This document shows, in pieces, positions 7,851 to 41,045 of a stretch of DNA of 64,000 nucleotides (position 1 is its first letter; the number at the start of each line of letters is the position of its first letter). Source of the DNA: a virus. Location: the IMG/VR virus record IMGVR_UViG_3300008952_000006, positions 64,001 through 128,000 of that record. One strand, given 5' to 3'. Below the pieces are notes generated by a model. That model did no database searches. It worked only from the letters and a program-made list of their open reading frames with translations, and had not been told where the DNA came from. Both the position numbers and the translations under genes were made by a program.

Positions 7851-9071
7851 TTAAACCATCCTCACGGGCATGGGTTGTGGCTGCTTCGATTTTTTATTAG
7901 CTCTAATTAATCCAAATGCGCCAAGACCGGCTGCGCCTCCACCAAGCATCAACATTTGGTTATGCTTCTTGGCTGCCGCTTTTGATGCCTGGGCCGCACG
8001 TATCGCACCAACGCCGCCTACACCGAGACCCATGAGGTGCTCTGGGTTAGTAAGCCCTAGCCCTTCAAGCCCTTTGTAGATGCTGGAGGGGGATATTTTC
8101 CCGTCTGGGTCACGAATCGCTCTACCAATATCGCCCATAAGTACCGGAACACCGGACACGGCGCTGCCGCCCTTCCTGCCAGCAACCCCGGCCATGTATT
8201 GATCCTGGTGGCCTTTAAGTTTTTTGGTCCACTCCGCAAGCTCAGTGGCGTCTGTGGGTTTTGGGGTCTTCATTTTCGCGAGCGCGTGCTCATAAGCCCT
8301 TTTATTGACAGCGTTCCATTCGGCTCCCTTGGCTGTATTTGATATCTGGGTTTTAAGCTTTTTCCCACTCTCAGCAAGGGTGCGGCCCGTCTCCCGCAAA
8401 TAGGCTCCCGACCCTGGCGCGACAGCCTCTGCAACGCCTGCGACACCCCTGCCCGTAGCTCTCGCCGCCCCGCCTACTCCGCCCTTTGTGAGATTCCAGG
8501 CTTGTCGGAAATAGCTGGGTGTTGCGGGGGTAGCATCCATCATGCCCTTGGTGTACGAGCTTGCGTCGTCTATCCCAGAGCCGACAAACTTTGCTGCCTC
8601 ATCAACAGCACCTTTAGCTTTTGGTGCAGCGTGTCTGCCAAGCCAAGTAAACGGCTTCATGGCAGTTTTCTCCATGCGGAGAGCCTCTATTAGAGCAGCT
8701 TTTTTATCTTCAGGGCTTGCTGTCTTTACTTTTGGAAGTTTCTTATTTTTAGGGATCTTGATCTTTGGGAGGGCGTCTTTCTTAGCCGTTGTGACTGGCA
8801 CCTTCTTTACTTGTAACTTTTTAAGCTTAGCAAGCTGGCCTACGCCACCTTTTGCGCCACCTTTGGGCTTAATGTCAGGCTGTGGCAACGGCTTCAGGGA
8901 AACAGACTTTCCTTGCTGTTGCGAGATGAGTTCTTTTGTTTTATCACGAGCAACTTGCCGTACCTTTAGCTTGGCCCCGGCGGTCTTCAGTCCAGTAAAG
9001 AATTCAGCAGCCGCTTGGTGTTTTTCAGCGGAGTCTGTTTCTTTTTTTGCTAATGCCTCAAAAGGGTCCAT
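7851..9071 (-). CDS. Basic Lys/Gly/Ala-rich virion protein with C-terminal hydrophobic segments (putative internal/ejection protein)
   Basis: Start reassigned to ATG 9071 (MDPFEAL; AGGAG RBS, removes overlap); KTAG, KTAS, EKTAM motifs; C-terminal GGGAAGLGAFGLI. Confidence 0.6.
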   Translation of the reverse strand: MDPFEALAKKETDSAEKHQAAAEFFTGLKTAGAKLKVRQVARDKTKELISQQQGKSVSLKPLPQPDIKPKGGAKGGVGQLAKLKKLQVKKVPVTTAKKDALPKIKIPKNKKLPKVKTASPEDKKAALIEALRMEKTAMKPFTWLGRHAAPKAKGAVDEAAKFVGSGIDDASSYTKGMMDATPATPSYFRQAWNLTKGGVGGAARATGRGVAGVAEAVAPGSGAYLRETGRTLAESGKKLKTQISNTAKGAEWNAVNKRAYEHALAKMKTPKPTDATELAEWTKKLKGHQDQYMAGVAGRKGGSAVSGVPVLMGDIGRAIRDPDGKISPSSIYKGLEGLGLTNPEHLMGLGVGGVGAIRAAQASKAAAKKHNQMLMLGGGAAGLGAFGLIRANKKSKQPQPMPVRMV

Positions 9072-9081
9072 TTGAAAACTC

Positions 9082-9486
9082 CTATGCCCGCCCTGTGGAT
9101 GTTCTTTGTACATGGCCAAACAGGACAAAGGAAATATTTACAACTAAGCTCCCGCCGCCACCAGCGGTCACAGTAAGCTCTAAATCGCGCCCAAGCGGAA
9201 CACCCAGGTCAATAATATTTGTTACACCCTTGGCTGGCTTAAGCGCTCCCGGCATTTGGCCTTCCCACCTAGCTAGAGGCGCTGGCCCCACCGCTGCTCC
9301 AGCGGTCGTGGCCCCAGGGACCGAGCCTTTTAAAATGTACGAGGTCGGGGTAGTGTTTGCGTGATCAGGAAGCGTCAAGCCTAATTTTATGTACTTACCA
9401 CTACCTGGAATAACAAAAGTTTCAGATTGCCCAGCAGCGACGTCTACTTCGATTGTTCCATAAATTGGGTCTCTAGCTTGTGCCAT
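9082..9486 (-). CDS. Hypothetical virion protein, beta-rich
   Basis: 134 aa, AGGAG RBS, co-oriented in the structural operon. Confidence 0.6.
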   Translation of the reverse strand: MAQARDPIYGTIEVDVAAGQSETFVIPGSGKYIKLGLTLPDHANTTPTSYILKGSVPGATTAGAAVGPAPLARWEGQMPGALKPAKGVTNIIDLGVPLGRDLELTVTAGGGGSLVVNISFVLFGHVQRTSTGRA

Positions 9487-9495
9487 ACTTGTCTC

Positions 9496-10038: not shown

Positions 10039-10457
10039 TATTCTCCACGGGCTTCTTTGATCTGCTTAATCAAAACCGTCTTTGTCTCGCTCCCGCTCAG
10101 GGGCAACTTTAAGCTTTTGGCAAGAGAGACCAGTTGGGCTTTTCTTAGTGAGTTTATATTAGTCGGAGCCTGCCCACCAACCCATGCTTCATCGACATCA
10201 GGCGTTGATTTGTCGTCCGCAATAAATTCCCCGTCCTCAGTTCTTGCTCGAGTAGGCTTCTTTTTTGGCACGGGGCCCTTAGCGTCCTTACGGGCTTTTC
10301 GTGCTGCGGCAGCATCTCTCTCATGTAAAGACAGCAGCCCTCGATCAACAAGCGGCTTAAGCTGCGCAAGTAGGTCGTCGGATACTTCCACCGTGTCCCC
10401 TACTTTTACGTAGTCCCCACCAATACGGAGGGGATATTTTTCGCAGCGGATAAACAT
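10038..10457 (-). CDS. Small protein with C-terminal Rho-N/HeH-like nucleic-acid-binding motif
   Basis: INSLRKAQLVSLAKSLKLPLSGSETKTVLIKQI; also RARTEDGEFIADDKSTPDVDEAW, a motif I recognise from other phage proteins. Confidence 0.6.
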   Translation of the reverse strand: MFIRCEKYPLRIGGDYVKVGDTVEVSDDLLAQLKPLVDRGLLSLHERDAAAARKARKDAKGPVPKKKPTRARTEDGEFIADDKSTPDVDEAWVGGQAPTNINSLRKAQLVSLAKSLKLPLSGSETKTVLIKQIKEARGE

Positions 10458-11012: not shown

Positions 11013-12233
11013 TTAGAACTGCGTAACCTGCGGGAAGGTCTGGCCTTCATCCACAAGGTGGTTACGAGCGCCGAGATCTTCCTCAGCGACAGGCAATCGG
11101 TCACGCTGCGTAGCTGCGTTGTTAGCGGGGGTAGTAAGCGGGTCAACAGAACCAGCATACAGCTCCAACTTACGAACACCGGCAACATTACCAATGTACA
11201 TGCCAATGTCTTCCCAAGCCTCAAACGAGATTCGGTTACGCTCTTTGTCAGCGTAGAACTTCGTCTTGTTGAGGAGCAAGAAGCCACCCAGATATTCAGG
11301 CGCTGTGAACGCATAAATATTACCTGGACGGAGGATGTCAGTTTTCAAAGTACGAACAAACTTACGGCCAATGACCGTGCTGTGCTTGTACCCGTCAACC
11401 ACATTCTCAGCAATGATCTTGTCGCCAAGGTCATTGTGCAACCACGCATTGATATCCTCGAAGTCAGTGTCGGTCAGCAGAAACTGATCGCACCGCATAC
11501 GAGAACCGCGAGTACCTGCGCCAACAGCGCTGCTACCCGTGAACGTTTGGAACAACGCAATCAGGTCCGCTTTGTCAACCGGTACAATTACCGCCTCATC
11601 GCAACCTGCGGCAGCGCCACCAACTGTCGATGGGAACAACGCAGCAGCTTTCACCTTGCCTACTTGAGCGGTAATGGTACCACCACCAGCGGGGTCAAGG
11701 TTAAACGCCGTGAACGCATCAGCGTCAGCATAGGTAGCACCGAACACAAGGCCCTGCGCATCCTGCTGCAATGACTGACAAGCCGACTCGACATGGGTCA
11801 AGAAGACACGGTCTTCAATCTCCTGAATGTCGTTGACGATATTACGCTTAATAATCTGCGTGATTGGCATCACATAGGCCATAAGCTCTTGTTCAGTTTG
11901 TTCAAAACGCTGCGAGCCAACCGTATGGAATGGTACTTCAAAGCGCGGGCCAGTGTAGTATCGAACCGTGGGTTGACCACGGAAAGACATACTCATAGCA
12001 CGGCTTGTTGGTTCCACTTCAACGATCTTAACAAGCGTATCGTGGTTTACACTGACCTGAAGGTCAGATCGGCTTACCGACTTCGGGGGGAGTACTTTGC
12101 GAGCAAAGCTTTCCTCACGCAGACGGTCTCGGATGTAATCGCCACCCAGGGCAGCAATTTTTTCTTTTCCAGCCTCGGTATCGAGCTTACTTACGAAAAG
12201 CTCGTTGAGGACGTCACTAGGTACACTAGACAT
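11013..12233 (-). CDS. Major capsid protein (HK97 fold expected)
   Basis: 406 aa; follows protease, scaffold-like and decoration-like genes; strong RBS (AAGGAGG); terminator downstream; YIRDRLREESFARKVLPP N-terminal pattern. Confidence 0.8.
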   Translation of the reverse strand: MSSVPSDVLNELFVSKLDTEAGKEKIAALGGDYIRDRLREESFARKVLPPKSVSRSDLQVSVNHDTLVKIVEVEPTSRAMSMSFRGQPTVRYYTGPRFEVPFHTVGSQRFEQTEQELMAYVMPITQIIKRNIVNDIQEIEDRVFLTHVESACQSLQQDAQGLVFGATYADADAFTAFNLDPAGGGTITAQVGKVKAAALFPSTVGGAAAGCDEAVIVPVDKADLIALFQTFTGSSAVGAGTRGSRMRCDQFLLTDTDFEDINAWLHNDLGDKIIAENVVDGYKHSTVIGRKFVRTLKTDILRPGNIYAFTAPEYLGGFLLLNKTKFYADKERNRISFEAWEDIGMYIGNVAGVRKLELYAGSVDPLTTPANNAATQRDRLPVAEEDLGARNHLVDEGQTFPQVTQF

Positions 12234-12857: not shown

Positions 12858-13205
12858 TTATTCACTTCCGAGAAGAAAATTCTCGAAAGCACTAGCTGCA
12901 TCAGCTTCAGGCACATCTGAAATTGACGCGAAAGACAGATCAGGTGGGGATAGGGCCAACGCCTCTTTAACAATCCGCAAGTCCTTTTTAGAAGCCAGCA
13001 ATGCAGCTACCTTCTGCTTAAAAGGAACAGAATTATCAGAGAAACCTCGAGCATCCATCATAGATACAACCTCTTCCGCCTCATCTCGTTTTTGGTACTC
13101 TTGCAGAGCACTTGCCAACTTTTGATTTTCCTCCACCAATTTACGCAGAGTCTGCGGAACTTGGCTGAGGACTTCTTGAGCTGAGTTTTTGTCGATTGAA
13201 CTCAT
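12858..13205 (-). CDS. Scaffold-like coiled-coil head protein
   Basis: LRKLVEENQKLASALQEY coiled coil; C-terminal FENFLL; KLAS, KVAA, KEAL motifs. Confidence 0.55.
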   Translation of the reverse strand: MSSIDKNSAQEVLSQVPQTLRKLVEENQKLASALQEYQKRDEAEEVVSMMDARGFSDNSVPFKQKVAALLASKKDLRIVKEALALSPPDLSFASISDVPEADAASAFENFLLGSE

Positions 13206-13207
13206 GA

Positions 13208-14026
13208 TTATGCCTCCTTACCAATCTGGGCCATCAACTTTCTTTTCAGATTGTCAGTGGCCTGTTTACGAGCCATGGGCCCTTCGCTACCGTGAACCTC
13301 GCCGGTCTCCGCACCTTGTAGGGTACTCTCGCCAAATTGCTCATCAGAGCTGAGTGCTGCATTCAACACATCAGCAAGGCTTTGGCCAGCACTAGCTGCC
13401 TTCACCGCCGCCTCACCATCAGCTTCATTTGAAGCTGGCTCTTCTGGTTCGTCGGGTGCAGTTTTCCCGACGTTAAAGATGTCCTCTTCAGACACAGGGT
13501 CTTCGGAGGTACTGCTGTAAAAAGTGTCAGACTCAGATTTGTCTGCCTCATCCGAATCACTTTCGTCGGACTTCAGATTTCTGAGCTTACCTAAAACGTT
13601 TTGGAACATTTCTTCTTTGGCCTCATCGGCCTTACTTTCCTGTTCCTTCTCTTCTTCTACGACTTCCTGCTTGGCAGAAATTCGTGACCGTAGACCCTCC
13701 CGTAACCGACTAGAAACGTCCGCAAGATTAACTACGTTATCTTCCGCAACTGTTTGTGGCTCTTCTTTGGGTGCGTCTGAGGTGAACCTCCCTGTTACGG
13801 GGTCCCTCCCAACGGCTTCTTTGCTAAGTTCTTGGTCAGCGCTTGTGTCAGCAGGGGCTGAAACAGCGTCTAAATTATCGATAATAAAATCTACCGCCGA
13901 GGCTAACTTTTCTACGTATACCGGATCTGTCAAACCAACACTGTTTTCGTTAGGTTTTTCAGATTCGACTACAGCAGAAGAACCGGCCCCAGCAAGCTTA
14001 TCTATTAGATTATTTAATGAAGACAT
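13208..14026 (-). CDS. Acidic scaffold/core protein
   Basis: Very acidic, low complexity; KLAG, EKLAS, KEAV, KTAP, KAAS motifs; AGGAGG RBS. Confidence 0.6.
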   Translation of the reverse strand: MSSLNNLIDKLAGAGSSAVVESEKPNENSVGLTDPVYVEKLASAVDFIIDNLDAVSAPADTSADQELSKEAVGRDPVTGRFTSDAPKEEPQTVAEDNVVNLADVSSRLREGLRSRISAKQEVVEEEKEQESKADEAKEEMFQNVLGKLRNLKSDESDSDEADKSESDTFYSSTSEDPVSEEDIFNVGKTAPDEPEEPASNEADGEAAVKAASAGQSLADVLNAALSSDEQFGESTLQGAETGEVHGSEGPMARKQATDNLKRKLMAQIGKEA

Positions 14027-14273: not shown

Positions 14274-14903
14274 TTACTGCTGTAGATGCTGCGCAATAGC
14301 GTCAACGTCATAACCAGCTTCGGCAAGCATTTCGCCAGCGCGCTCAGTTACAGCGTTATCTAGTTGCTCATCATCAATAGCAGCGGAAGATTGCTTAACA
14401 GTTCCTGTGTCGAGGAAAGTCAGAATCTCTTGGGCGCGCTCCATAGAAGCTTGCTCAAAAGCCTGTGCAAACTCAGGATCGACTTCTTGGGTTGCCGCAG
14501 GCGCTTCTTCTTCGCTTGCAGTCTTCAAGAATCGATCACTGGGGCGACCAGAGGCGGTTTTTTCAGTACCACCCTGCTGAATCGAAGTGAGTTCGTCGTA
14601 GAAAGCGTGTGCCATCGTTCGGCCAAGAAAGTCAGCTTCTGCAAGCTTAACTTGGCTTTCATCTTCTTCACCTGCTTCAGGAGCAGCGTCAGCAGCAGCG
14701 GCAGTCTTTTCAACTTCTCCACCCATAGCTTCTTGCAAGATTTCAAGAATGTCATCATCATTAAACTCATTAAGATCAATACCTTCTGCGGCTGCGACCT
14801 TCTCGAGTTCTTCCAACAGTGCGGCCTCAGCAGTTTTTTCAACACCAGAATTGGTGTCAATGTTTCCCTGGGTACCATATGCTTGTGCTAGCAGTTCGTT
14901 CAT
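14274..14903 (-). CDS. Acidic scaffold/core protein
   Basis: Start reassigned to ATG 14903 (MNELLAQ; AAGGAG RBS); six K-x-A motifs (EKTAE, EKVAA, EKTAA, VKLAE, EKTAS, LKTAS). Confidence 0.65.
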   Translation of the reverse strand: MNELLAQAYGTQGNIDTNSGVEKTAEAALLEELEKVAAAEGIDLNEFNDDDILEILQEAMGGEVEKTAAAADAAPEAGEEDESQVKLAEADFLGRTMAHAFYDELTSIQQGGTEKTASGRPSDRFLKTASEEEAPAATQEVDPEFAQAFEQASMERAQEILTFLDTGTVKQSSAAIDDEQLDNAVTERAGEMLAEAGYDVDAIAQHLQQ

Positions 14904-14985: not shown

Positions 14986-16674
14986 CTAAGAAAACTTGAC
15001 CGCAAGATTGTTCAACGACTTGTCAAACATACCCGAACTTTTAAAGCCCATACCCAAACGGGTAAGACCTACAAAGACCGATGTGGCCAAGATTGGATGC
15101 CTCTCGATAAACCTATCAAGCGGACCAGTTTTCTGGTGAGTACGCCGTCTTTTGCCTCTTACGTGCGCACCGTAAAGATAAGCCATGGGCAAAACACCAA
15201 CCAACGCTAAAGGCAGCTTAGCTGTTTTTGTTAGTTGAGAACCCATCATAAACTCATCTTCCAGACCTGGGCCGTTAATGGCCGAGAGTAATCCTATATC
15301 ATCACTTGTAATATGAGCAACAATGGAACCTATTTTGTCCATCAATTGCTCACGATAACCATTGTATCCTGCTGCAATACCTTTAAGAAGGATCTTTTCG
15401 TCAGGACTAATATCAATATTGCTCACTTGCCCCTCTTTGTGCAGGCTAAGCATACCCGGAGATAGCTGGCTTGTGGAAGGTGGGGAAGTTCTAATAATCA
15501 TTATACGCCTTGTAATAACAGGGCCAAACATACTACGTTTTGGTATAATGTCCATAAGCATATCTTTAATTGGGCACGAGAACTGGCTACGATTCCCAAT
15601 CTGGATACTTCTGTCTACATCTCCGGACGGCGCAAACGTATGATTTGCCGCAGACAGCCTGTCGGCCAAAGGCTTCTTACCAATCCTTATGAGGATAATC
15701 CTCTGAAACTCTTTTGGCTTGAGAACTATCCCTGCTGACGCGGAGGTTGTCAGCGCTTTCTCAATGGGGCTTTTTGCCATCCTATCCAAAATATTACTAG
15801 AAATATCAGGCTCATGGCGTTCTATGTGGGGCATAACTCGTGCAGAGAGCGCTGGTACCTCTTTAAGAATAGTTGATATTTTACTCCGCGCAGCCATCTT
15901 CTCCTTCAGAACTTGTACCGCGTACCCGTCTCGGATGCCTGCGTCTTCTGCTGCAGCTGCGGAGGAGGTGCCGTAGATGGAAGCCACTTTTGCCATCGCA
16001 TAGCTAGTGCGGTCAGCACCAATAACAACAAAGCTAAGGTCGAAAAACTTAGGCTTTGGGTTGTAGACAAAGACTTTGCGGCCATCCGGGAATGTTTTGC
16101 CCATCATGGTCTTTGTATGAGCGCAGTAGTCCGCCCGGGTCTTGGACTTATGGCCACAGATAGAGCAGATATCATATTTAACGCGACAACCCATACTAAC
16201 TGCAGGGTTTTCGCCAGCGTCTAATTTTCGCACAAGGTCCCCGTGGCCTTCAGCCTCAGCCTTGGCTCTGTCAATCATCAAGATTAACTCAACCCGGTGC
16301 ATCACAGGATTATAAATAGTATGGACCACTTTGCCGACAGAGCGCTCTATGTCTTTGTTTTTGTGGTGTCGGTATATACCCGCGTCGGTAAATGTTTTGT
16401 GCCCAGAATTACAGGTAGGGTCTGTGGGGTTTAGCTCCTTCTCCTCAAAATAATCACCGTTAATATTACTGCCATAATACTCACCGGCCCCTAGAGCGTT
16501 TACTAGAACGTACAGATGGCCGTCACTGGGTTTAATATCATCGATGTATGAAGAAATTTGGGGATGTAGGCTGCTGCAAAAAGCCGTCTTAACAAATCCA
16601 ATTGACGGATTAATGGCCTGTACAAAGATGTTTCCATCTTCATCGGAGCCTGGGAATGTAAGTAACTTAAGCAT
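14986..16674 (-). CDS. Prohead maturation protease (HK97/assemblin-like) with zinc-finger insert and long C-terminal extension
   Basis: NINGDYF, YRHHKNKD..GKV (His), VSMGC (Ser), CSICG..YC.H, DLSFV..GAD; lies upstream of scaffold and capsid genes. Confidence 0.75.
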   Translation of the reverse strand: MLKLLTFPGSDEDGNIFVQAINPSIGFVKTAFCSSLHPQISSYIDDIKPSDGHLYVLVNALGAGEYYGSNINGDYFEEKELNPTDPTCNSGHKTFTDAGIYRHHKNKDIERSVGKVVHTIYNPVMHRVELILMIDRAKAEAEGHGDLVRKLDAGENPAVSMGCRVKYDICSICGHKSKTRADYCAHTKTMMGKTFPDGRKVFVYNPKPKFFDLSFVVIGADRTSYAMAKVASIYGTSSAAAAEDAGIRDGYAVQVLKEKMAARSKISTILKEVPALSARVMPHIERHEPDISSNILDRMAKSPIEKALTTSASAGIVLKPKEFQRIILIRIGKKPLADRLSAANHTFAPSGDVDRSIQIGNRSQFSCPIKDMLMDIIPKRSMFGPVITRRIMIIRTSPPSTSQLSPGMLSLHKEGQVSNIDISPDEKILLKGIAAGYNGYREQLMDKIGSIVAHITSDDIGLLSAINGPGLEDEFMMGSQLTKTAKLPLALVGVLPMAYLYGAHVRGKRRRTHQKTGPLDRFIERHPILATSVFVGLTRLGMGFKSSGMFDKSLNNLAVKFS

Positions 16675-17328: not shown

Positions 17329-18240
17329 TTAACCCGCGTAGCTTAGAAGCTCGGCACCAGTGCCCGCAAAAGCACCTCGAAGAAGGCTGTCCTTCCTCTT
17401 TGAGTCACTCAAGTGCTTCGAGACCTCTGTAAGAGTTTTTATATCGATTGGTTGGATGCCCTCATCTTTGAACTGTAAGGATCTTTTTAGGAAGGAGCCC
17501 GCTACAAGAGGATCACTAGCCATTACTGGGTTAAACTTATAGAGGGTTCTAAAAATCTTGGAAACATCCCCTGGACGCTCTTTTTTTAGACCAGGATTCT
17601 CGTCCATCATCTTGTTAAAGTATTTCTTCTTCTTCAGAGGCTCCGCTATTAGCTCTTGCATCCCCTCTACGCCTTTGATCCCTCCAGCGAGAGCGGCACC
17701 GCCAGCACCAAACATTAAGGCTTTTCTGCCAACGGTATCTTTACCTATCAGCTCTTGGATAAGAGTTTTCTTGGGGGCTCGCTTTGCCATCGCCGCAGTG
17801 GCGAGTGCCCCTCCGCCAAGCAAAACACCTTTACCCAAAGCACTTCGGATGCTTTTAGCAACATCATCAGCATTAACAGCCTTGCCCCCCACATCTTTGA
17901 AATAGTTCAATATCTTTTTCAGATTGTCACTCTTGGGTGCTGATGCGGGCGGTGGCGTCTTGGGACTGGGTGAGCCCTTGGGAGACGCGCCCATATCTTT
18001 GTCGGCGTTGGGAAACATCCCCTTGATAGCTTTATCAAGGCGCGGGTCATTCTCTAAGCTCTTAAACTTATATTTTGACTTTGGGGGCGTGCTTGCCGAG
18101 TAGCTTGGCTTTCGTGATTTCCGCCGAGTACCAACATTATAAGATTCGACACTCCCTGCATCGATCTTCTTGCCCGTGCCACCAGCGTACGTATAAGCGG
18201 CTAATTTAGTTAGTAATCGTATTCTTCGTTCTAAATCCAT
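17329..18240 (-). CDS. Basic virion protein with hydrophobic Gly-rich segments
   Basis: Start reassigned to ATG 18240 (MDLERR; removes overlap); N-terminal TKLAAY; GVLLGGGALATAA and FGAGGAALAGG segments. Confidence 0.6.
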   Translation of the reverse strand: MDLERRIRLLTKLAAYTYAGGTGKKIDAGSVESYNVGTRRKSRKPSYSASTPPKSKYKFKSLENDPRLDKAIKGMFPNADKDMGASPKGSPSPKTPPPASAPKSDNLKKILNYFKDVGGKAVNADDVAKSIRSALGKGVLLGGGALATAAMAKRAPKKTLIQELIGKDTVGRKALMFGAGGAALAGGIKGVEGMQELIAEPLKKKKYFNKMMDENPGLKKERPGDVSKIFRTLYKFNPVMASDPLVAGSFLKRSLQFKDEGIQPIDIKTLTEVSKHLSDSKRKDSLLRGAFAGTGAELLSYAG

Positions 18241-18242: not shown

Positions 18243-18782
18243 TTAACCCCATGCCCTTCTCTGGAAGGGATTTTCTACATCCGGTGAGCGCCACTGGCGA
18301 ATAGTCTCTGGTGAAATATCTGTATTAGGGCGCGGGGCTACGCTAGCCGCCACCTGCCTCATGTCAGGATTTTTCGCTAAGTAGTAAGCTAGAAGGGCAC
18401 CGCCACCAGTCAAGATTGGGTGGTTCCGAGCAAATCCCACCACACCCCCGGGCACGAACTTCCGCTTGTAATACTGTGGAAGGGTATGCCCTTCCATGGT
18501 GGCCTTATATGCCTTACCGGGCTTCATCCCAGCTTTAATCTCCGCATACTCCCCCCGGGTAATAGGATCTAAGCCCCGTTGGCCAGGAACCTCTTTTAAC
18601 CGCTTCCCGTACATGGGGTGCATGGGGTTCCACTGTTTAGGGCCAAACATGAGCCCGCCAACCCCACCGGAAACAAGATCACCAGGGACCCTGGCTACAC
18701 GTGCCATCGGGCCATAAATTATGTCCCCAAGGCTTGCGGCAAGCTTTGCTTTTGCGGCTCTTTTTTCAAGGGGGGTCATCAT
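18243..18782 (-). CDS. Basic virion protein with hydrophobic segment
   Basis: N-terminal EKRAA and KLAAS; HPILTGGGALLAYYL. Confidence 0.6.
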   Translation of the reverse strand: MMTPLEKRAAKAKLAASLGDIIYGPMARVARVPGDLVSGGVGGLMFGPKQWNPMHPMYGKRLKEVPGQRGLDPITRGEYAEIKAGMKPGKAYKATMEGHTLPQYYKRKFVPGGVVGFARNHPILTGGGALLAYYLAKNPDMRQVAASVAPRPNTDISPETIRQWRSPDVENPFQRRAWG

Positions 18783-18784: not shown

Positions 18785-19978
18785 TTAAACGACTCCTGGT
18801 CCTTGGGGCCCCTGGGGTCCGGGAGATCCCGGGGGCGCTGCGGCAGGTGGGCCCGCCATGCCCGGGCCAACAGGTGCGGGTGCGCCTGCAGGGGGTTGCG
18901 CGCCTTGCGGCGGCATCGCTCCCTCAGGCCCGGGCGGTGGCGGCGGTTGGGGAGCGCCAAATAATTGGGCTGCTGAAGATGACATATCGGGGCCTTTCAG
19001 GATAGCCAAAAGCTCCTGCATGCCCATCTGTGTTCTGACAACAGCCGCCTGTGCCATTTGAAGTTTCCCCGAGACGCTCTCAAGCTCTTGGGTTAGACCC
19101 GTAACTGGGTTTGACATCAGCATGCCCATCCCAAGCTTCTTAAGCTCCTCACCGTGCCCAAATTCAACTAAGCTTCCAACATGCTCACCAATAACGTTTA
19201 GTAGCCCTTCGGAAGCACCGCCAGCCTCAATTGCATAACCAATAATACCTGCGCTATTCCCGGCCCGAGAAGCCTCTTTGCACAGGTCCTTAAGAGCTGC
19301 CAGCTTGATGCAGAAGTGGTCGCCAAGAACTTCTTTTTCAGATTCAGCGTTTTTGTTCTCTGCGTGTAGGTCCAAAAATTCACGTGCGGCGTCCCTGGTG
19401 CCGGGGTTAACGTGAGGCTCGATACCAGCCTTCTTTTCTAGCGAGGCCCCGTAAGTGTTGAGGAATCCCTGAACCTGCTCTGGCGTGTAGTCTGGGTATG
19501 CCTGCTTTACGGCGTCCCTGGCTGCCACCCCCTGCTTAATAAGCGTGCGCACGGCGCTGACATTAGCGGTTTTTTCCATACCTGATCCAGTAAACACGTC
19601 CTCCAAATCAATGGCCTCTTGGCCAGCGATATACCGAAAGTGGCTAGGCACAGCAGGCCTGTTCACAGAGGCCGTCTTCTCTTTTGTGGGGGACAGGCTT
19701 TGAGCCACTGCTGTGGCCTCCGCCATGGGGAAAGTGATATTTTTATCGAAGCCAAGCTTAAACATGGTCGAAAAAGTATCATTATTTGCATACTCGGAGA
19801 CACGTTTAATCTGCTCGAGATTCAACCCAGACTCTTTGGCAAACTCTAGAATGGTGTCATTCAGCGGAGTCTTGTTCTGAACATACCGTACAGCAGCCTG
19901 CTTCCCCATGTGCCTAAGCTCCGAAGAAGAGAGACCAGCGTCTTCCTTGGTTAACAAATACTTTTCTAGTTCGTTCAT
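18785..19978 (-). CDS. Head core/scaffold-like protein with Pro/Gly-rich tail
   Basis: EKTAS, EKTAN, EKKAG, KLAA, KEAS motifs; start overlaps terminase stop (TAATG). Confidence 0.65.
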   Translation of the reverse strand: MNELEKYLLTKEDAGLSSSELRHMGKQAAVRYVQNKTPLNDTILEFAKESGLNLEQIKRVSEYANNDTFSTMFKLGFDKNITFPMAEATAVAQSLSPTKEKTASVNRPAVPSHFRYIAGQEAIDLEDVFTGSGMEKTANVSAVRTLIKQGVAARDAVKQAYPDYTPEQVQGFLNTYGASLEKKAGIEPHVNPGTRDAAREFLDLHAENKNAESEKEVLGDHFCIKLAALKDLCKEASRAGNSAGIIGYAIEAGGASEGLLNVIGEHVGSLVEFGHGEELKKLGMGMLMSNPVTGLTQELESVSGKLQMAQAAVVRTQMGMQELLAILKGPDMSSSAAQLFGAPQPPPPPGPEGAMPPQGAQPPAGAPAPVGPGMAGPPAAAPPGSPGPQGPQGPGVV

Positions 19979-21845: not shown

Positions 21846-22115
21846 TCATTTCTCGCCCCCTACATCCGAAAAATCATTGCAGACAAAGTCAGATCTAACC
21901 GGAGACTGGGCGTACCTTGAGCACCAACCGTCACCCTTCCAAGACCTACCAGCAGTGTAGGTAAAGTTCTCACAGCTTCCACAGGACGCATAATCCTTAG
22001 ACACTCTGAGGTTGGGTGGGTTGGCCTGGGCTAGCTTTTGCCGAATTCCTTCCAAAGAATCTGGAGAAAAGGCCAGGAGACTTCTTTTGGGTTGTGGGTT
22101 TTTTGGCGTAGACAT
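21846..22115 (-). CDS. Small Cys4 metal-binding protein (HiPIP-like spacing)
   Basis: From ATG 22115: CGSCENF..GWCSRY..V..VCNDF; QKLAQA motif; overlaps the helicase 3' end. Confidence 0.5.
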   Translation of the reverse strand: MSTPKNPQPKRSLLAFSPDSLEGIRQKLAQANPPNLRVSKDYASCGSCENFTYTAGRSWKGDGWCSRYAQSPVRSDFVCNDFSDVGGEK

Positions 22116-26856: not shown

Positions 26857-28845
26857 TTACAAAGAAACGTCTGCCCTAATCTGAAGCTTCTTTAATCCTT
26901 GCGAGGCGCGCTCAATACCCTTTAAAGCGGAAGATACCGCGCTTTCGGGAACATCAGAAAGGCCTAGGCGGATACCCACTAGCAACTCTGCGAGCTTGGA
27001 AGCCGCCTCCTCCAGAGTAGGGATCGCATCCACATACCCCTGGATGTTTTCAGGGGTAACAAAATTCAAAGAAAGGACGGAGTCCACGGTGTTCGGGTTT
27101 GTCAGGGCGGCAGCCTCTTTTACCAAGTCAATATGGATGACTTCTGCCAGCTTCACGGCCTCGCTAGAAACAGTGGGACTTTCCTCGGGAAGCCCAAAGC
27201 TGTTCTTAGCAACAAAGGAAAAGGCTCCTTGTTTGGTGGCAGCAGCCAGTTTTTTCATAGCTCCTGCCGGTGTATCCCCAAGGACCCCAAGGAACAGTAA
27301 TGCGTCTGCAGCGTTAAGCTTAGCGTTGGCGGTTTTGTCCAAGATGGCCACAGGCCGCCCACTAAAGGAGAACTCGGAGCCATCCGAACGGAGACAAACC
27401 TCCATCATTCGGTCCTGACTGGAGGCAATTTTGTCTACACCAACAGTATCGGAAGCGTAGCGGCCTCCGAAGGCAAGAGGAACGAACACAGCGCTATCGG
27501 GAAAAAGGTAGTCATTGCCCTTGATAAGAACTGGCTGGGTTACACTTGCTAATTTCAAAGCGCCACGACCGCGCAAAGGATGATCATATAGATAGGAAGT
27601 CTCCCCATCAAACTCAACCTTATTGAGGACTTTTATAGGCTCTGTGACCGCAGCGGTCTTCAGAACAAAGACGCCATCACCGAGGGGCTCCCCGCCTGAC
27701 AGCGCCGCCAGATTCAGATCTCCACAACGAACACCGGCCACTTTTTCCTGCAACGAGGCTCCGGACTCACCAACTACCAGGCAAAGGTCCATGTCGTGGC
27801 CGTCGAAAGACACAAGGTTGCTAATCACAGCGGCGCGCTGCGCCCGACCCGTTTTAGTCATAACTGAGTACACGCCATCAGCCTTAACGGTCTTTAGATT
27901 GGCTGTTTTCTCCACCGGGACAAGCTCTTTGTTCTCAGCGGAAACAAGCAACGTGTGACCATTATTGATAACGCCCTGCCGGATCTCAACAGGGATTTCT
28001 TGCCCTTCTACATTGTTTAGGAAAATCTCCTGCGAGACCCCATCGACAGAAGCCATCTTAAGCTTGTAGCCGCCACCAACCTTGGACACAACTGTTGCGT
28101 CAAAGTCATCCATTGATTTGTGTTCCTCAACAGCGTCTTCCTTTTCGCCCATTCTCTCTGCCAGCTTCACCACAGCCGCACTAAAAGCCTCATTAAGAAC
28201 AACGGCATCCTTCAAAGATTGGTCACCAGCAACCTTTTCCAGAAAAGAGGCTACCGCTTGCGTGTCAATTCCTTTGCCAAGCGCGTCTAGGACAGATGCT
28301 TGCTTCACTGTAGTATTGACCGCAGTGGCTCCGCCACCAGTCATGGCTGCTGGATCTTGGGGCCCAAAGTTCTGAGCACCCGCAGAGGTGGCTGGTGACA
28401 TTGCGGGCGCAACAACATAGGGGCTCATGTCAAACAACGCTGCGGAGACCCTCTCCTCATTTAGTGGCAGGAAACGCCCATCGGGGGAAATGAAAACATC
28501 AAACGAGTAAGCCTTCTTGTTTTCAACAATAATAGGAATCCTAAGGGCTCGTTCATCTTGCGGGGTTTCCTTTTCGGGGGAACGGATCATCTCGCCCATC
28601 CGCGCCGCACCCGCAGGAGAAGGCATATCGGGAGCCTGGGTAACCTTGAAAACCCCGTACATATACCCAAGGCTCTGGTCTTGCCCCTCAATAGACATAT
28701 TGACCTGATACTTTCCAAGATAGGAATGCTGCTTATACAGGTGTGCCAACAGCTCACTTGGATAAGTGCTAGGGTTATCGCCAAGGATGAACTTGGATGC
28801 CGTTTTCTCAAAAGTTGGCGTTCGAAGTTTTCTAATAAGATCCAT
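26857..28845 (-). CDS. Large head core protein rich in K-x-A motifs
   Basis: Start reassigned to ATG 28845 (MDLIRKL; GAGGT RBS, removes overlap); about 15 K-x-A motifs; helical C-terminal domain. Confidence 0.7.
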   Translation of the reverse strand: MDLIRKLRTPTFEKTASKFILGDNPSTYPSELLAHLYKQHSYLGKYQVNMSIEGQDQSLGYMYGVFKVTQAPDMPSPAGAARMGEMIRSPEKETPQDERALRIPIIVENKKAYSFDVFISPDGRFLPLNEERVSAALFDMSPYVVAPAMSPATSAGAQNFGPQDPAAMTGGGATAVNTTVKQASVLDALGKGIDTQAVASFLEKVAGDQSLKDAVVLNEAFSAAVVKLAERMGEKEDAVEEHKSMDDFDATVVSKVGGGYKLKMASVDGVSQEIFLNNVEGQEIPVEIRQGVINNGHTLLVSAENKELVPVEKTANLKTVKADGVYSVMTKTGRAQRAAVISNLVSFDGHDMDLCLVVGESGASLQEKVAGVRCGDLNLAALSGGEPLGDGVFVLKTAAVTEPIKVLNKVEFDGETSYLYDHPLRGRGALKLASVTQPVLIKGNDYLFPDSAVFVPLAFGGRYASDTVGVDKIASSQDRMMEVCLRSDGSEFSFSGRPVAILDKTANAKLNAADALLFLGVLGDTPAGAMKKLAAATKQGAFSFVAKNSFGLPEESPTVSSEAVKLAEVIHIDLVKEAAALTNPNTVDSVLSLNFVTPENIQGYVDAIPTLEEAASKLAELLVGIRLGLSDVPESAVSSALKGIERASQGLKKLQIRADVSL

Positions 28846-37200: not shown

Positions 37201-37416
37201 TTGAAGACTGTAAAAAAGATCCAGTGCTTTATAAAGAGTGGTTGGTGCCGAACGCCAGCCAACTGTGGCGAATGCGAGTACTTTCTGGACCATAAAATAA
37301 ACCGTTGGGTTTGCGTCAAATGTCTTAAACATAACGATGCAACCTCCAGCTTTTTCCAGAAGGGGCGGTGTGACCGCTGCGAAAAGTCATCAGCGATATT
37401 GGTTTGTGTAGGTTAA
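37201..37416 (+). CDS. Small Cys-rich zinc-finger protein antisense to the structural operon
   Basis: 71 aa, 9 Cys with three CxxC pairs; stop overlaps portal stop (TTAA). Confidence 0.55.
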   Translation: MKTVKKIQCFIKSGWCRTPANCGECEYFLDHKINRWVCVKCLKHNDATSSFFQKGRCDRCEKSSAILVCVG

Positions 37417-39380: not shown

Positions 39381-39391
39381 CTATACACCCC

Positions 39392-40063
39392 TCATGGAAG
39401 CAGCTTCTTAATTTGTACAAGAAGAGATCCAGAGGCCGCTTCTAGGAAATCTTTAACAGAGGTAGACTTCATAATTTGAACGTCGTCCTCATTTTTTCCA
39501 TTAAACATGGGCTTCCTTTTCATGTCTAATGCTCTTTTTACTTTATCTTGCTGGGAAGAATTAATAAATTCTACAAGATATGGGTTACTTGGTTCAAGCG
39601 ATCCCGGCCCGTAAGAGAGGCCGTAGTCTAGCATAACGGCAGCAACGTACTTGTAAACCTCCGAAGAAATTTCTGCATCTTCACGCAATTGGGACATTAT
39701 ATCTAGGGCTAAGGCTGCTCTATGGGGGGTAGGTCTTTGTACGATATCGAACTTGGGAGTTAATCCCACAAACCCCAGGACCACTTTTTCAAAGATCTCC
39801 CAGCGATTATACGGGGAGTCTGAGACATGGCAGGTCCTGATAGCCTGTATTTTGTTCCGGTTTACCTCAGAAATGGTTGTTCCCCAGGACCGTCCAATCT
39901 CGAGCCAGCACGTTTCCGGTTCCCAGCCAAGATATTCGGACCCAAACTCCCGAAGGAGCATTAGGTTGAGAACAAGTGGATGAGTCTCGCGATTCGTAAA
40001 AGCTTGCCTGGGAGTTTGCGGCCCCGTGCTGGCAACAAGATGTGGATTAGTAGTTATGGTCAT
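39392..40063 (-). CDS. Hypothetical protein of head module
   Basis: 223 aa, globular-looking (WEPET, WEIFEK), directly upstream of portal. Confidence 0.65.
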   Translation of the reverse strand: MTITTNPHLVASTGPQTPRQAFTNRETHPLVLNLMLLREFGSEYLGWEPETCWLEIGRSWGTTISEVNRNKIQAIRTCHVSDSPYNRWEIFEKVVLGFVGLTPKFDIVQRPTPHRAALALDIMSQLREDAEISSEVYKYVAAVMLDYGLSYGPGSLEPSNPYLVEFINSSQQDKVKRALDMKRKPMFNGKNEDDVQIMKSTSVKDFLEAASGSLLVQIKKLLP

Positions 40064-41045
40064 CTATCATCCGCGCAATCGCTTGCTTGTGTGTTACAGG
40101 CAAGCTGGAGAGCACAGATGCAGGATCTGCTGAGAATTGCTCTGAAAAGCCCTCCCCAAACGAATCTGTTAATCGCTCAGAGCCCCCATTCTGGGTCCAG
40201 TGAGCCACGGTGTCGGCTGTGTATTCGCGGCCATTGATTTCAAAAGGCTGGTCCGCAGACGCATTTTTTTCGACCGATGTCCCAAATACTGTCTGGTAAG
40301 GGTCTGGTATTACCTTATTATATAGGCCAGTAATGCCGTGGCGGATGTCAAAGTCAGCGATATCTTCGGCCAACTGGTCAACGTCTGCAGACGCGGACTT
40401 AACCAGAAGAGCCTCAAGCTCAGCAATTCCATCGGCCTCCATAACCGCTAGTTTCCTGGTATCGATACCTAAAGAAAAGTCACTCCCAAGCTCAGCGCGG
40501 GAGTAGTCTGCCATATCATCCGAAAAAAGGTCGTTAAAAACCCCGGCCTCTTTTACCTGCAGCATCAACCGTCGCTTACCCCTTGGGCTACACGCGGTGA
40601 AGGCATCTTTAACAACCTCGTACTGGTCGTTTTCGGTCACACCAAAAAGCTCTTCCAAGCTTCGGTCCTGAGCCTCTCCGCTATAGCCAAGATCTAAGGC
40701 TGCGGTTTTGCACAGAGTTTCTGGTGGAGTAAACCCAAAAGCGGTCAGAGCGGTGCTCAGTTTCTGGGCCGCCTCTTTTTGAAGCTCCTCGGGCAGGGCG
40801 TCTCCGTGAGCCGAAAAGTACATCGCGGAAGCAATAGTGTTACCAGCATCGACAATGGGTAGCTTATGGGCTTTTCCTCGCCCCGTGTCCACCACTAGAG
40901 CGTAATCCCCGTCTTTAGGGGTCGTGTTCTGGGATAGATCAGCGGCCACCTTAACAATAGGGGGAATTCCTTTTTCGGAAAACTCTTTTCGGAGGAGGAG
41001 GCCTCCATCATCGTAGTGATCTAGCACTGCTGGTAATTCTTTCAT
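40047..41045 (-). CDS. Acidic head core protein with K-x-A motifs; first gene of the structural block
   Basis: Start reassigned to ATG 41045 (MKELPAV; GGGAG RBS); KVAA, KEAA, KTAA, KEAG, KSAS, KNAS. Confidence 0.65.
   Translation of the reverse strand: MKELPAVLDHYDDGGLLLRKEFSEKGIPPIVKVAADLSQNTTPKDGDYALVVDTGRGKAHKLPIVDAGNTIASAMYFSAHGDALPEELQKEAAQKLSTALTAFGFTPPETLCKTAALDLGYSGEAQDRSLEELFGVTENDQYEVVKDAFTACSPRGKRRLMLQVKEAGVFNDLFSDDMADYSRAELGSDFSLGIDTRKLAVMEADGIAELEALLVKSASADVDQLAEDIADFDIRHGITGLYNKVIPDPYQTVFGTSVEKNASADQPFEINGREYTADTVAHWTQNGGSERLTDSFGEGFSEQFSADPASVLSSLPVTHKQAIARMIDDHNY

What the first reader, a model, noticed from the sequence alone, without database searches (positions are those of the whole stretch)
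7851..41045. Pervasive K-x-A-(S/A/E) motif: candidate prohead-protease cleavage and capsid-loading code
Seen: K-[T/V/L/E/Q/I]-A, often as EKTAS, VKLAE or EKVAA, occurs about 15 times in the 26857-28845 protein, 6 times in 14274-14903, and repeatedly in 40047-41045, 18785-19978, 13208-14026, 12858-13205 and 7851-9071. It occurs once near the capsid N-terminus (EKIAA), brackets the protease catalytic domain (VKTAF, AKVAS), and sits in the first ~16 residues of the SNF2 helicase (IKKAA), the peptidase (SKEAA) and two basic proteins (EKRAA, TKLAA). By eye it is not enriched in tail or replication proteins. Known: T4 gp21 and phiKZ gp175 process many head proteins at short motifs ending in Glu; herpesvirus assemblin, same fold clan as HK97-type proteases, cleaves after Ala at A|S bonds. 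Inference: this phage matures its head by cutting after K-x-A, shredding acidic core proteins and freeing cargo from short leaders, so the motif could predict virion content from sequence alone.
Basis: partly seen in the sequence, partly recalled or inferred. Interest (0 to 1): 0.85.

Follow-up and report, generated by a model that had tools for sequence, protein, structure and literature searches.

The report
K-x-A head-protease code in marine phages
A complete 173-kb uncultured marine phage and its relatives, including two cultured groups, mark their head proteins with a conserved Lys-x-Ala motif that is most likely the cutting site of their own T4-type head-maturation protease; the mechanism is known, but the recognition code is not among those I know or found in the papers searched, and cleavage itself has not been shown.

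Summary
**Observation: confirmed.** In six head-module proteins K-x-A occurs 50 times against 14.7 expected (z about 10.5). K-x-A-[SAGEN] occurs 39 times against 5.9. Reversed, re-spaced and substituted patterns (A-x-K, K-A, K-x-x-A, R-x-A, K-x-S) are not enriched. Of 1600 residue-pair patterns scanned blind, K-x-A gives the strongest localised signal in this genome. It also ranks first in five related metagenomic head modules and in Salmonella phage Arash, and second in Vibrio phage D69.

**Conservation.** The K and A are about twice as conserved as other K and A residues in the same proteins, while x varies. Codons at the sites are synonymous at background frequencies.

**Protease.** The motif flanks the catalytic domain of the protease, whose model matches T4 gp21. 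K29/A31 are invariant in 70 homologues and K229/A231 are about 95% conserved in 150. It also sits at residue 25-27 of the capsid protein (114/115 homologues).

**Leaders and avoidance.** The motif lies in the first 35 residues of 24 of 71 virion-arm proteins against 2 of 110 others. It is depleted in the bodies of the remaining virion proteins.

**Reading.** A prohead-protease recognition and cleavage code with T4-like N-terminal leaders, confidence about 0.68. No cleavage data exist. The virion RNA polymerase lacks the motif, so it does not predict all cargo.

**Earlier scan notes.** The scan had noted K-x-A leaders elsewhere in this genome, and only L/I-x-E codes on other DNA.

The parts
14986..16674 (-). 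Prohead protease, 562 aa. The catalytic domain is about residues 32-228, followed by a C-terminal half of about 330 residues.
   Evidence: PHROG head maturation protease, E 1e-11. No Pfam family. The AF2 model (pLDDT 87) matches T4 gp21 5jbl at probability 1.00, TM 0.67 by target. H104, S160, C170, C173 and C184 are invariant in 70 homologues. The family has 3540 cluster representatives.
16579..16590 (-). KTAF, residues 29-32: K-x-A site on the N-terminal flank of the protease domain.
   Evidence: K29 and A31 are invariant in 70 homologues. In 150 representatives K is found in 107 and A in 105, with 24-26 gapped. Also present in Arash, Vibrio D69, phage G and mycobacteriophage Alice.
15979..15990 (-). 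KVAS, residues 229-232: K-x-A-S site at the C-terminal end of the catalytic domain.
   Evidence: K in 129/136, A in 123/130 and S in 81/130 of aligned homologues; alignment decays immediately after. Lies in the only low-confidence segment of the model, 220-233.
15217..15228 (-). KTAK, residues 483-486: third K-x-A in the protease C-terminal tail, just before a hydrophobic segment.
   Evidence: Arash (IVKSAG at 470) and D69 (VEKSAE at 448) have a site at a similar place.
11013..12233 (-). Major capsid protein, 406 aa, with EKIAA at residues 24-28 (K-I-A-A at 12150-12161).
   Evidence: PHROG major head protein, weak. Homologous to the annotated major capsid protein of Arash. K in 114/115 and A in 112/115 homologues. 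VKEAG in Arash and TKEAG in D69 at residue 27.
14274..14903 (-). Acidic 209-aa protein between protease and capsid genes, with 6 K-x-A sites (EKTAE, EKVAA, EKTAA, VKLAE, EKTAS, LKTAS). Scaffold-like candidate substrate.
   Evidence: 6 against 1.2 expected. K23-T24-A25, K35/A37 and K66/A68 are among the few invariant columns in 7 homologues down to 33% identity.
13208..14026 (-). Acidic 272-aa protein with 7 K-x-A sites.
   Evidence: 7 against 2.3. YVEKLASAV and KAASA are invariant islands in an alignment with 55% mean column identity and many indels.
12858..13205 (-). 115-aa helical protein with 3 K-x-A sites.
   Evidence: 3 against 1.2; K-[TVLEQI]-A 3 against 0.5.
18785..19978 (-). 397-aa protein with 8 K-x-A sites (EKTAS, EKTAN and others) and a Pro/Gly-rich tail. 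Homologue of Arash gp220.
   Evidence: 8 against 3.1. Arash gp220 has 10 against 3.0. Homologues in L003, L006, L008, L012 and L013 are also enriched.
26857..28845 (-). 662-aa protein with 17 K-x-A sites, the first (EKTAS, 28795-28806) in a disordered N-terminus.
   Evidence: 17 against 4.9. Across 67 homologues, site K/A conservation is 0.67 against 0.34/0.35 for other K/A. The 24%-identity homologue has 20 sites against 2.8 expected. The AF2 model has pLDDT 81.6 and no PDB fold match.
40047..41045 (-). Acidic 332-aa protein upstream of the portal gene, with 9 K-x-A sites.
   Evidence: 9 against 2.0, p<0.001 by shuffles; Poisson p 2.6e-4 in the genome scan.
21997..23772 (-). SNF2-family helicase with an N-terminal extension of about 30 residues carrying LIKKAAE (23737-23748).
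   Evidence: Pfam SNF2-rel_dom 1.7e-21. L-x-K-x-A-E is kept in 8 of 9 relatives; the extension is absent from Arash gp217. The Arash helicase is a virion protein by MS.
18243..18782 (-). Basic 179-aa protein with the leader MMTPLEKRAAK (18753-18764).
   Evidence: An N-terminal K-x-A is present near the start in all 7 family members, while the following region is variable.
17329..18240 (-). Basic 303-aa protein with the leader ...LLTKLAAY (18196-18207).
   Evidence: (L/M/A)(T/N/E)KLA is kept in 5 of 9 family members.
2..514 (-). N-terminal part of a 331-aa protein with the leader ...ELSKEAAK (467-478). Resembles a zinc peptidase only weakly.
   Evidence: Pfam Zn_peptidase_2, E 0.0011, below the curated cut-off; site.
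7851..9071 (-). Basic 406-aa protein with three KTA sites (LKTAG, VKTAS, EKTAM). Marginal member.
   Evidence: KTA 3 against 0.5, but generic K-x-A 10 against 8.2.

Best explanation
**What it is.** K-x-A is the substrate recognition motif of this phage's prohead protease. The fuller form is (L/V)-(E/V)-K-(T/L/V/E/Q)-A-(S/A/G/E/N). The protease is a serine protease of the T4 gp21 / herpes assemblin fold.

**Proposed mechanism (inferred by analogy with T4, phiKZ/SPN3US and herpesviruses).**
1. The protease is built into the procapsid as a zymogen through its long C-terminal half.
2. It frees its catalytic domain by cutting at the K-x-A sites on both flanks (29-31 and 229-231).
3. It trims about 27 residues from the capsid protein.
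4. It removes short N-terminal leaders from about a third of the virion-arm proteins. These include an SNF2 helicase, a weakly zinc-peptidase-like protein and families of small basic proteins.
5. It cuts the acidic scaffold-like proteins encoded beside it at many sites.

The leaders probably double as capsid-loading tags, like the T4 capsid targeting sequence.

**What is shown.** The motif is real, directional and residue-specific. It is conserved at protein level and confined to virion genes. It is conserved across a large phage clade and is present at the protease's own domain boundaries.

**What is inferred.** That it is cut at all; that the bond is after Ala (P1 Ala, P3 Lys, small P1'); and that the leaders direct packaging.
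For: 1. **Specificity.** 50 against 14.7 for K-x-A and 39 against 5.9 for K-x-A-[SAGEN]. Nine control patterns are flat. K-x-A is the top pattern of 1600 in a blind scan.
2. **Clade-wide.** K-x-A also ranks first in blind scans of the head modules of L003, L006, L008 (protease 35% identical), L012, L013 and Salmonella phage Arash. It ranks second in Vibrio phage D69.
3. **Short-linear-motif conservation.** In 67 homologues of the 662-aa protein, site K/A are conserved at 0.67 against 0.34/0.35 for other K/A (p 5e-4 and 1e-4). The middle residue varies, and site number is kept through turnover: 20 against 2.8 expected at 24% identity. In nine other families the figures are 0.75 against 0.58, p 9e-6. 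In the acidic proteins the motifs are the invariant islands.
4. **Enzyme.** The fold match to T4 gp21 has probability 1.00. H104 and S160 are invariant. K-x-A on both flanks of the catalytic domain is invariant or about 95% conserved in 70-150 family representatives. It is present even in phage G gp19 and mycobacteriophage Alice gp90. The C-terminal site lies in the disordered linker of the model.
5. **Capsid protein.** The N-terminal site is kept in 112-114 of 115 homologues and in Arash and D69.
6. **Leaders.** K-x-A-[SAGEN] lies within the first 35 residues in 24/71 virion-arm proteins (6.4 expected) against 2/110 others (5.5 expected), Fisher 1.7e-9. This was replicated in the distant relative G001: 15/53 against 9/165, p 2.5e-5.
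7. **Avoidance.** The bodies of the other 57 virion-arm proteins are depleted in K-x-A-[SAGEN] (37 against 54.1, P 0.009). A-x-K is not depleted, and non-virion genes are not.
8. **Precedent.** SPN3US gp245 removes N-terminal propeptides, self-cleaves, cuts some propeptides at several sites and prefers Ser at P1' (PMC10052503).
Against: - No mature N-terminus, peptide map or cleavage assay exists for any phage with this motif. The Arash study used a standard tryptic search and reports no processing.
- Motif-rich Arash proteins gp220, gp223 and gp225 are still detected in virions. Wholesale degradation and expulsion is therefore not supported, although retained fragments would also be detected.
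- The 662-aa protein is predicted to be well folded, and 5 of its 17 sites are in mid-helix.
- The 27 residues ahead of the capsid site are themselves well conserved, so they could be a permanent part of the protein.
- The RNA polymerase, a major virion protein in Arash, carries no motif.
- The avoidance signal is modest and was tested post hoc.
- Some leader-bearing proteins are paralogues (five or six start MNALEKYAAKK), which inflates the leader count.
Confidence: 0.68

Rival explanations
1. K-x-A is a docking motif that is not cut. On this reading it is a short linear motif by which head-internal and scaffold-like proteins bind a common partner during procapsid assembly, such as the capsid shell interior, the portal, or the non-catalytic half of the protease. 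Multiple copies would give avidity.
For: The evidence for confinement to virion genes, motif-level conservation and N-terminal placement fits a binding motif as well as a cleavage motif. Motif-rich homologues are still found in Arash virions. Several sites lie inside predicted helices and strands of a folded protein.
Against: A pure docking motif does not explain why both boundaries of the protease catalytic domain carry it almost invariantly across a family of thousands of members, including phages without the multi-site proteins. It also does not explain why other virion proteins avoid it. In T4 the targeting leader and the cleavage site coincide, so this rival may be complementary rather than exclusive.
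Confidence: 0.15
2. K-x-A marks lysines for a post-translational modification. One candidate is conjugation by the phage's own ubiquitin-like E1/E2 cascade, by analogy with the SUMO consensus hydrophobic-K-x-E (recalled from my own knowledge). Another is some other lysine-directed enzyme.
For: The motif has the same shape as the SUMO consensus, with Lys as the best conserved residue and a hydrophobic or acidic residue before it. The E1 is present in three marine relatives that also have the motif.
Against: Vibrio phage D69 has a very stereotyped motif (10 sites in one acidic protein, plus the capsid and protease sites) but no detectable E1. Arash gives only a marginal hit, E 0.002. The flanking sites of the protease are conserved in phage G and mycobacteriophage Alice; I did not check those two genomes for the cascade. 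Ala is as invariant as Lys, which a lysine-acceptor site would not obviously need.
Confidence: 0.05
3. The motif is a by-product of composition, internal duplication or secondary-structure preference in Lys/Ala/Glu-rich helical proteins, and has no function of its own.
For: The enriched proteins are rich in A, E and K and largely helical. Some sites sit at the ends of helices and strands.
Against: Global and 25-residue block shuffles never reach the observed count. The reversed and shifted patterns are flat or depleted, and R cannot replace K nor S/G replace A. The motif recurs in unrelated proteins and is kept at 24-35% identity with turnover of positions.
Confidence: 0.03

Closest known systems
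Phage T4 prohead protease gp21 with its (L/I)-x-E sites and the capsid targeting sequence of internal proteins IPI-III and Alt
   Same: Same protease fold (Foldseek to 5jbl, probability 1.00). The protease gene lies in the head module. Short N-terminal leaders ending in the protease motif sit on unrelated head proteins. Scaffold-core proteins carry many sites. A short N-terminal piece of the capsid protein lies before a site. From my own knowledge, gp21 is a zymogen trimmed at both ends.
   Different: The motif is K-x-A followed by a small residue, not hydrophobic-x-Glu. There is no sequence-level match to the Pfam T4-type family. The enzyme is 562 aa with a Cys-rich insert beside the catalytic Ser and a C-terminal half of about 330 residues. 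Cleavage is not shown here.
phiKZ gp175 / SPN3US gp245 prohead proteases ((A/S/G)-x-E motif) of jumbo phages with virion RNA polymerases
   Same: Large heads hold many internal and ejected proteins, including a multisubunit-type RNA polymerase. N-terminal propeptides are removed from a subset of head proteins. The protease self-cleaves. Some propeptides have multiple sites. Ser is preferred at P1' (PMC10052503).
   Different: The P1 residue differs (Glu there, probably Ala here). In this clade the RNA polymerase is a single fused beta-beta' chain (split into beta and beta' genes in Arash) and carries no leader. The capsid and protease proteins gave no significant match to phiKZ-like phages in the phage collection.
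Herpesvirus assemblin (pUL26 family), release (R) and maturation (M) sites (V/L)-x-A|S
   Same: Same fold clan; weak Foldseek matches follow T4 gp21. Ala followed by Ser. A site sits exactly at the C-terminal end of the catalytic domain, ahead of a long non-catalytic part, as at the R site. The resemblance to the herpes sites is from my own knowledge of those sites, not a test.
   Different: Here the conserved upstream residue is Lys two positions before Ala, and the residue between is variable or hydrophobic. In herpesviruses the position three before the cut is hydrophobic. The third catalytic residue was not examined.
Salmonella phage Arash (OQ632216) and Vibrio phages D69/D181/D148: cultured relatives
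   Same: Protease about 40% identical over the catalytic domain, and capsid protein 38% over the N-terminal part. Same K-x-A sites on the protease flanks and capsid N-terminus, and the same multi-site acidic proteins. Arash virions contain the RNA polymerase and the helicase (PMC10585845).
   Different: The Arash helicase lacks the N-terminal leader. Its homologue of the 662-aa protein, gp218, has only 5 sites. The protease is annotated only as 'structural protein', and the paper does not describe the motif.

Membership tests
Prohead serine proteases of the T4 gp21 / herpes assemblin fold | Assemblin-type fold of the catalytic domain | tested here: met
   The AF2 model (pLDDT 87, pTM 0.81) matches T4 gp21 5jbl chains A-C at E 1.6e-4 to 3.7e-4, probability 1.00, TM 0.67 by target. 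Herpes proteases follow weakly.
Prohead serine proteases of the T4 gp21 / herpes assemblin fold | Conserved catalytic Ser and His | tested here: inconclusive
   H104 and S160 (VSMG) are invariant in 70 homologues. I did not superpose them on the gp21 active site, and the third residue was not identified.
Prohead serine proteases of the T4 gp21 / herpes assemblin fold | Sequence membership of a curated family (Pfam S77, S78 or S80 type models) | tested here: not met
   No Pfam family at E up to 0.01. Only PHROG 18299 'head maturation protease' at 1e-11. No PDB sequence relative.
Prohead serine proteases of the T4 gp21 / herpes assemblin fold | Gene lies in the head-assembly module next to scaffold and capsid genes | tested here: met
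   Order on the minus strand: portal, RNA polymerase, helicase, terminase, protease, acidic proteins, capsid protein.
Prohead serine proteases of the T4 gp21 / herpes assemblin fold | Proteolytic activity on head proteins, and self-processing | not testable with these tools
   Only the conserved flanking motifs are seen.
T4-type capsid targeting sequence / propeptide system | A short N-terminal leader ending in the protease motif, shared by otherwise unrelated head proteins | tested here: met
   24/71 virion-arm proteins against 2/110 others, Fisher 1.7e-9. Replicated in G001, p 2.5e-5. Leaders are conserved in homologues.
T4-type capsid targeting sequence / propeptide system | The motif is hydrophobic-x-Glu | tested here: not met
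   The logo is (L/V)-(E/V)-K-x-A-(S/A). L-x-E is only mildly over-represented genome-wide, at 1.27-fold.
T4-type capsid targeting sequence / propeptide system | The leader is removed in the mature virion and is sufficient for packaging | not testable with these tools
   No N-terminal data are given in the Arash virion study.
Herpes assemblin R/M-site code | Ala at P1, Ser at P1', and a site at the end of the catalytic domain | tested here: inconclusive
   The pattern fits: A231 about 95% and S232 62% conserved, with the domain alignment ending there. The scissile bond is unknown.
SUMO-like hydrophobic-K-x-E conjugation consensus (rival) | Co-occurrence of the motif with an E1/E2 cascade | tested here: not met
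   The ThiF E1 was found in G001-G003. It is marginal in Arash and absent from Vibrio phage D69, which has the motif.

The most novel reading that the evidence does not exclude
A large protease family with no Pfam model (3540 cluster representatives) uses a Lys-x-Ala recognition code that I did not find described. In the roughly 180-kb marine, Vibrio and Salmonella phage clade that packages its own RNA polymerase, the code can be read directly from sequence. On that reading it defines the set of proteins that are loaded into and trimmed in the head (helicase, peptidase-like protein, families of small basic proteins) and the scaffold proteins that are cut up, while the remaining virion proteins have evolved to avoid it.
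Probability: 0.55. Interest if true: 0.7.

Novelty: new variant of a known kind. Interest (0 to 1): 0.62.

Why it matters
Proteolytic head maturation, and protease-linked leaders that load proteins into capsids, are understood in only a few models: T4 (L/I-x-E), phiKZ/SPN3US ((A/S/G)-x-E), HK97 and the herpesviruses.

If K-x-A is the code of this protease family, it would add a new specificity to the assemblin-fold clan. That specificity is close in form to the herpesvirus Ala|Ser sites. It would also allow a sequence-only first list of head-internal, probably ejected proteins for a widespread clade of marine phages of about 180 kb, and for cultured Salmonella and Vibrio phages.

The claim is directly testable, because Arash and the Vibrio phages are in culture.

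It is not a new kind of system, and the motif is not a complete predictor of cargo.

Tried and rejected
- **Complex prediction.** Protease domain (32-228) against the acidic 14274-14903 protein (1-140): no answer (score 0.12, mark 0.32). This is not evidence either way.
- **Fold search of the 662-aa model against the PDB**: nothing below E 0.001, so its fold remains unassigned.
- **Pfam and PHROG** on the motif-rich proteins: no informative family.
- **PDB sequence search** with the capsid protein and the protease profile: nothing. No solved mature capsid of a relative could be used to read the N-terminus.
- **Arash supplements**: only a feature table, with no peptide lists. The coverage figures in its Table 2 cannot map termini, and no ProteomeXchange identifier was found.
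- **Phage G literature.** The multi-omics preprint gives no cleavage sites. The 2020 structure paper, PMC7316594, is not held.
- **DNA-level explanation** (a nucleotide motif): rejected, because codons at the sites are synonymous at background frequencies.
- **Genome-wide enrichment:** K-x-A is not among the top globally enriched pairs. The signal is localised to particular proteins, which is why per-protein statistics were used.
- **Megablast of 10 kb against cultured phages:** no match.
- **46558-47553 (+ strand):** this replication-arm protein has 5 K-x-A against 1.6, but none is followed by S/A/G/E/N, and it was treated as chance.
- **Not attempted:** testing whether the leader predicts the MS-detected proteins of Arash. 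The annotation table could not be passed to a script without retyping it.

Full report
**Setting.** The window is bases 64001-128000 of a complete 173,034-bp viral record with direct terminal repeats. The minus-strand block 2-41045 is a virion operon. Going down the strand it encodes:
- an acidic protein (40047-41045);
- the portal (37413-39380; homologous to the annotated portal gp204 of Arash);
- a single-chain beta-beta' RNA polymerase (30754-37029; Pfam Rpb2 and Rpb1 domains);
- a 662-aa protein (26857-28845);
- an SNF2 helicase (21997-23772);
- the large terminase (19978-21615);
- several small proteins;
- the protease (14986-16674);
- three acidic or helical proteins;
- the capsid protein (11013-12233);
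- tail genes.

No cultured phage is close at DNA level. At protein level the nearest cultured relatives are Salmonella phage Arash and Vibrio phages D69, D181 and D148, with the protease about 40% identical over its catalytic domain. Bacillus phage G and the Bixzunavirus mycobacteriophages follow at about 30%.

They show 3- to 17-fold excess in 26857-28845, 40047-41045, 14274-14903, 18785-19978 and 13208-14026, and weaker excess in 12858-13205. The 7851-9071 protein is enriched only for KTA.
- Pooled over six proteins, K-x-A is 50 against 14.7 expected and K-x-A-[SAGEN] is 39 against 5.9.
- Shuffling within 25-residue blocks gives the same expectation, so local composition is not the cause.
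- The signal is directional and residue-specific. A-x-K, K-x-x-A, A-x-x-K, R-x-A, K-x-S, K-x-G and E-x-A sit at expectation. K-A and A-K are depleted.
- To guard against cherry-picking I scored all 1600 residue pairs at gaps 0-3 for localised enrichment over every ORF of the genome. K-x-A came first, with twice the score of the runner-up.
- Genome-wide K-x-A is not over-represented. It is concentrated in a few proteins.
- Lys and Ala codons at the sites follow background synonymous usage, so selection acts on the protein.
- The logo from 49 sites is (L/V)-(E/V)-K-(T/L/E/Q/V)-A-(S/A/E/G)-(A/V).

**Is it conserved?**
- The same blind scan ranks K-x-A first in the head modules of five metagenomic relatives, including L008 whose protease is only 35% identical, and in Arash. 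It ranks second in Vibrio phage D69. It is not found in L009 (31%) or around the phage G protease.
- In 67 homologues of the 662-aa protein (24-100% identity), the K and A of the sites are conserved at 0.67 against 0.34 and 0.35 for the other K and A residues of the same protein (p 5e-4 and 1e-4). The middle residue drifts among T, V, L, I and M.
- Weakly aligned sites are often replaced by a nearby K-x-A. The most distant homologue has 20 copies against 2.8 expected.
- Nine further families give 0.75 against 0.58 (p 9e-6).
- In the fast-evolving acidic proteins the motifs are the invariant islands between variable, indel-rich stretches: EKTA, EKVA, YVEKLASAV, KAASA.

This is the signature of a short linear motif under selection for presence and number, not of a structural core.

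**The enzyme.**
- The 14986-16674 protein matches no Pfam model. It hits a PHROG head-maturation protease.
- Its first 270 residues recruit 3540 cluster representatives from the 50% library.
- An AlphaFold model built on 70 of them (pLDDT 87) matches the T4 prohead protease gp21, with herpesvirus proteases next.
- His104 and Ser160 are invariant, as are three cysteines of an insert beside the serine.
- The motif brackets the domain. K29 and A31 are invariant in the 70-sequence alignment. K229 and A231 are about 95% conserved in 150 representatives, followed by Ser in 62%. After that the alignment collapses.
- The 220-233 segment is the only low-confidence part of the model.
- Equivalent flanking sites are present in Arash, D69, phage G gp19 and mycobacteriophage Alice gp90.

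A protease carrying its own substrate motif at both ends of its catalytic domain is what is known for T4 gp21 and, at the C-terminal end, for herpes assemblin. That comparison rests on established knowledge of those families, not on a test here.

**Other substrates suggested by position.**
- The capsid protein has E-K-(I/L/V)-A at residues 24-27 in 112-114 of 115 homologues, and K-E-A at residue 27-29 in Arash and D69.
- After refining start codons across the whole genome, K-x-A-[SAGEN] lies within the first 35 residues of 24 of 71 virion-arm proteins (6.4 expected from shuffles). Among other proteins the count is 2 of 110 (5.5 expected), Fisher 1.7e-9.
- Five or six of the 24 are paralogues that start MNALEKYAAKK, so the number of independent cases is nearer 19.
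- The test replicates in the distant relative G001, where virion genes were defined by homology and position: 15/53 against 9/165, p 2.5e-5.
- Individual leaders are conserved in homologues. L-x-K-x-A-E is found on the helicase in 8 of 9 relatives, and an N-terminal K-x-A (LEKxA in five) on the 18243-18782 family in 7 of 7 members.
- The bodies of the 57 virion-arm proteins that are not multi-site carriers are depleted in K-x-A-[SAGEN] (37 against 54.1, P 0.009). The reversed pattern is not depleted, and non-virion genes are not. The extreme case is the Gly/Ala/Lys-rich 23834-25729 protein, with 1 against 7.3. Avoidance is what one expects if an unwanted copy is harmful, as for a protease site. 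The effect is modest and was examined after the fact.

**What argues against, or limits, the reading.**
- Nobody has mapped mature termini in any of these phages. The Arash virion proteomics used tryptic searches, its supplement holds no peptides, and its coverage figures are unusable for this purpose.
- The motif-rich Arash proteins gp220, gp223 and gp225, the 662-aa homologue gp218 and the protease itself are all detected in virions. If they are cut, fragments stay in the head, so 'shredding' is too strong.
- The 662-aa protein is predicted to be well folded (pLDDT 81.6). By the DSSP string, 11 or 12 of its 17 sites lie in loops, disordered segments or within a residue of the end of a helix or strand, but five are in mid-helix.
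- The RNA polymerase has no leader and no enrichment, although it is the most abundant virion protein of Arash. Packaging does not require the motif.

**Rivals.**
- A docking motif that is never cut fits much of the evidence. It does not fit the protease-flank conservation or the avoidance signal, and it may simply be the other half of one mechanism, as in T4.
The motif has the shape of the SUMO consensus, so I tested whether motif and E1 travel together. They do not: the E1 is absent from Vibrio phage D69 and marginal in Arash, and both have the motif.
- A compositional artefact is excluded by the controls.

**Comparison and verdict.**
- The system works like the T4 and phiKZ/SPN3US head-maturation systems: a protease of the same fold, self-processing, N-terminal propeptides, multi-site scaffold proteins and packaged enzymes.
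- In the form of its site it resembles the herpesvirus Ala|Ser sites.
- It differs in the recognition code (Lys at the third position before the presumed cut, Ala at the first) and in protease architecture (Cys-rich insert, long C-terminal half). The protease also belongs to a large family with no curated Pfam model.
- I found no description of this code in the papers searched.
- Among the follow-up reports my look-ups returned for other genomes, most describe T4-type L/I-x-E leaders and none a K-x-A code. K-x-A leaders had been noted only in other windows of this same genome.

I file it as a new variant of a known kind of system. Confidence that K-x-A is the protease's recognition motif is about 0.68. 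Confidence that the cut is directly after Ala is lower.

Noticed in passing
window 30754-37029 (-): A single 2091-aa frame carries both beta (Rpb2 domains 3, 6, 7) and beta' (Rpb1 domains 1, 2, 3, 5) of a multisubunit RNA polymerase, inside the virion operon. In Arash the homologous regions are two genes (gp206, gp216), and gp206 is the most abundant virion protein by MS.
   Followed up: partly
window 16105-16200 (-), protease residues about 159-190: Directly after the invariant VSMG serine the protease has an insert with three invariant cysteines (C170, C173, C184), which looks like a zinc-binding knuckle. T4 gp21, 164-166 residues in the 5jbl chains, is much shorter. The family has 3540 cluster representatives and no Pfam model.
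   Followed up: partly
protease homologues P0074, P0090, P0094, P0101, P0106, P0125 and others: Many family members are 860-1330 aa and match the catalytic domain in two stretches separated by hundreds of residues, or start it at about residue 440. Inserted elements (possibly inteins) or N-terminal fusions are likely. Mycobacteriophage Alice gp90 is a 1511-aa protein with the protease domain at its N-terminus.
   Followed up: no
window 26857-28845 (-): The 662-aa protein gives a confident multi-domain model (pLDDT 81.6, 370 residues at 90 or above) with no match in the PDB at E below 0.001. It has 67 homologues, none named by its source beyond 'hypothetical protein'.
   Followed up: partly
window 23834-25729 (-): This 631-aa Gly/Ala/Lys-rich protein, with glycine-zipper-like stretches, contains only 1 K-x-A where 7.3-7.6 are expected. 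It is the strongest avoidance in the genome.
   Followed up: partly
G000 54439-55101 (L018 3440-4102), outside the window: The ThiF-type E1 of the phage's ubiquitin-like operon is conserved in three marine relatives (39-78% identity). It was not found in Vibrio phage D69 and is marginal in Arash.
   Followed up: partly
G000 20-583, 1775-2557, 2568-2978, 8054-8518, 172386-172928 (outside the window): Five or six otherwise different basic proteins start with nearly the same leader, MNALEKYAAKK, which contains K-Y-A-A at residues 6-9.
   Followed up: partly
window 46558-47553 (+): This replication-arm protein has 5 K-x-A against 1.6 expected, but none is followed by S/A/G/E/N. Probably chance.
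   Followed up: no
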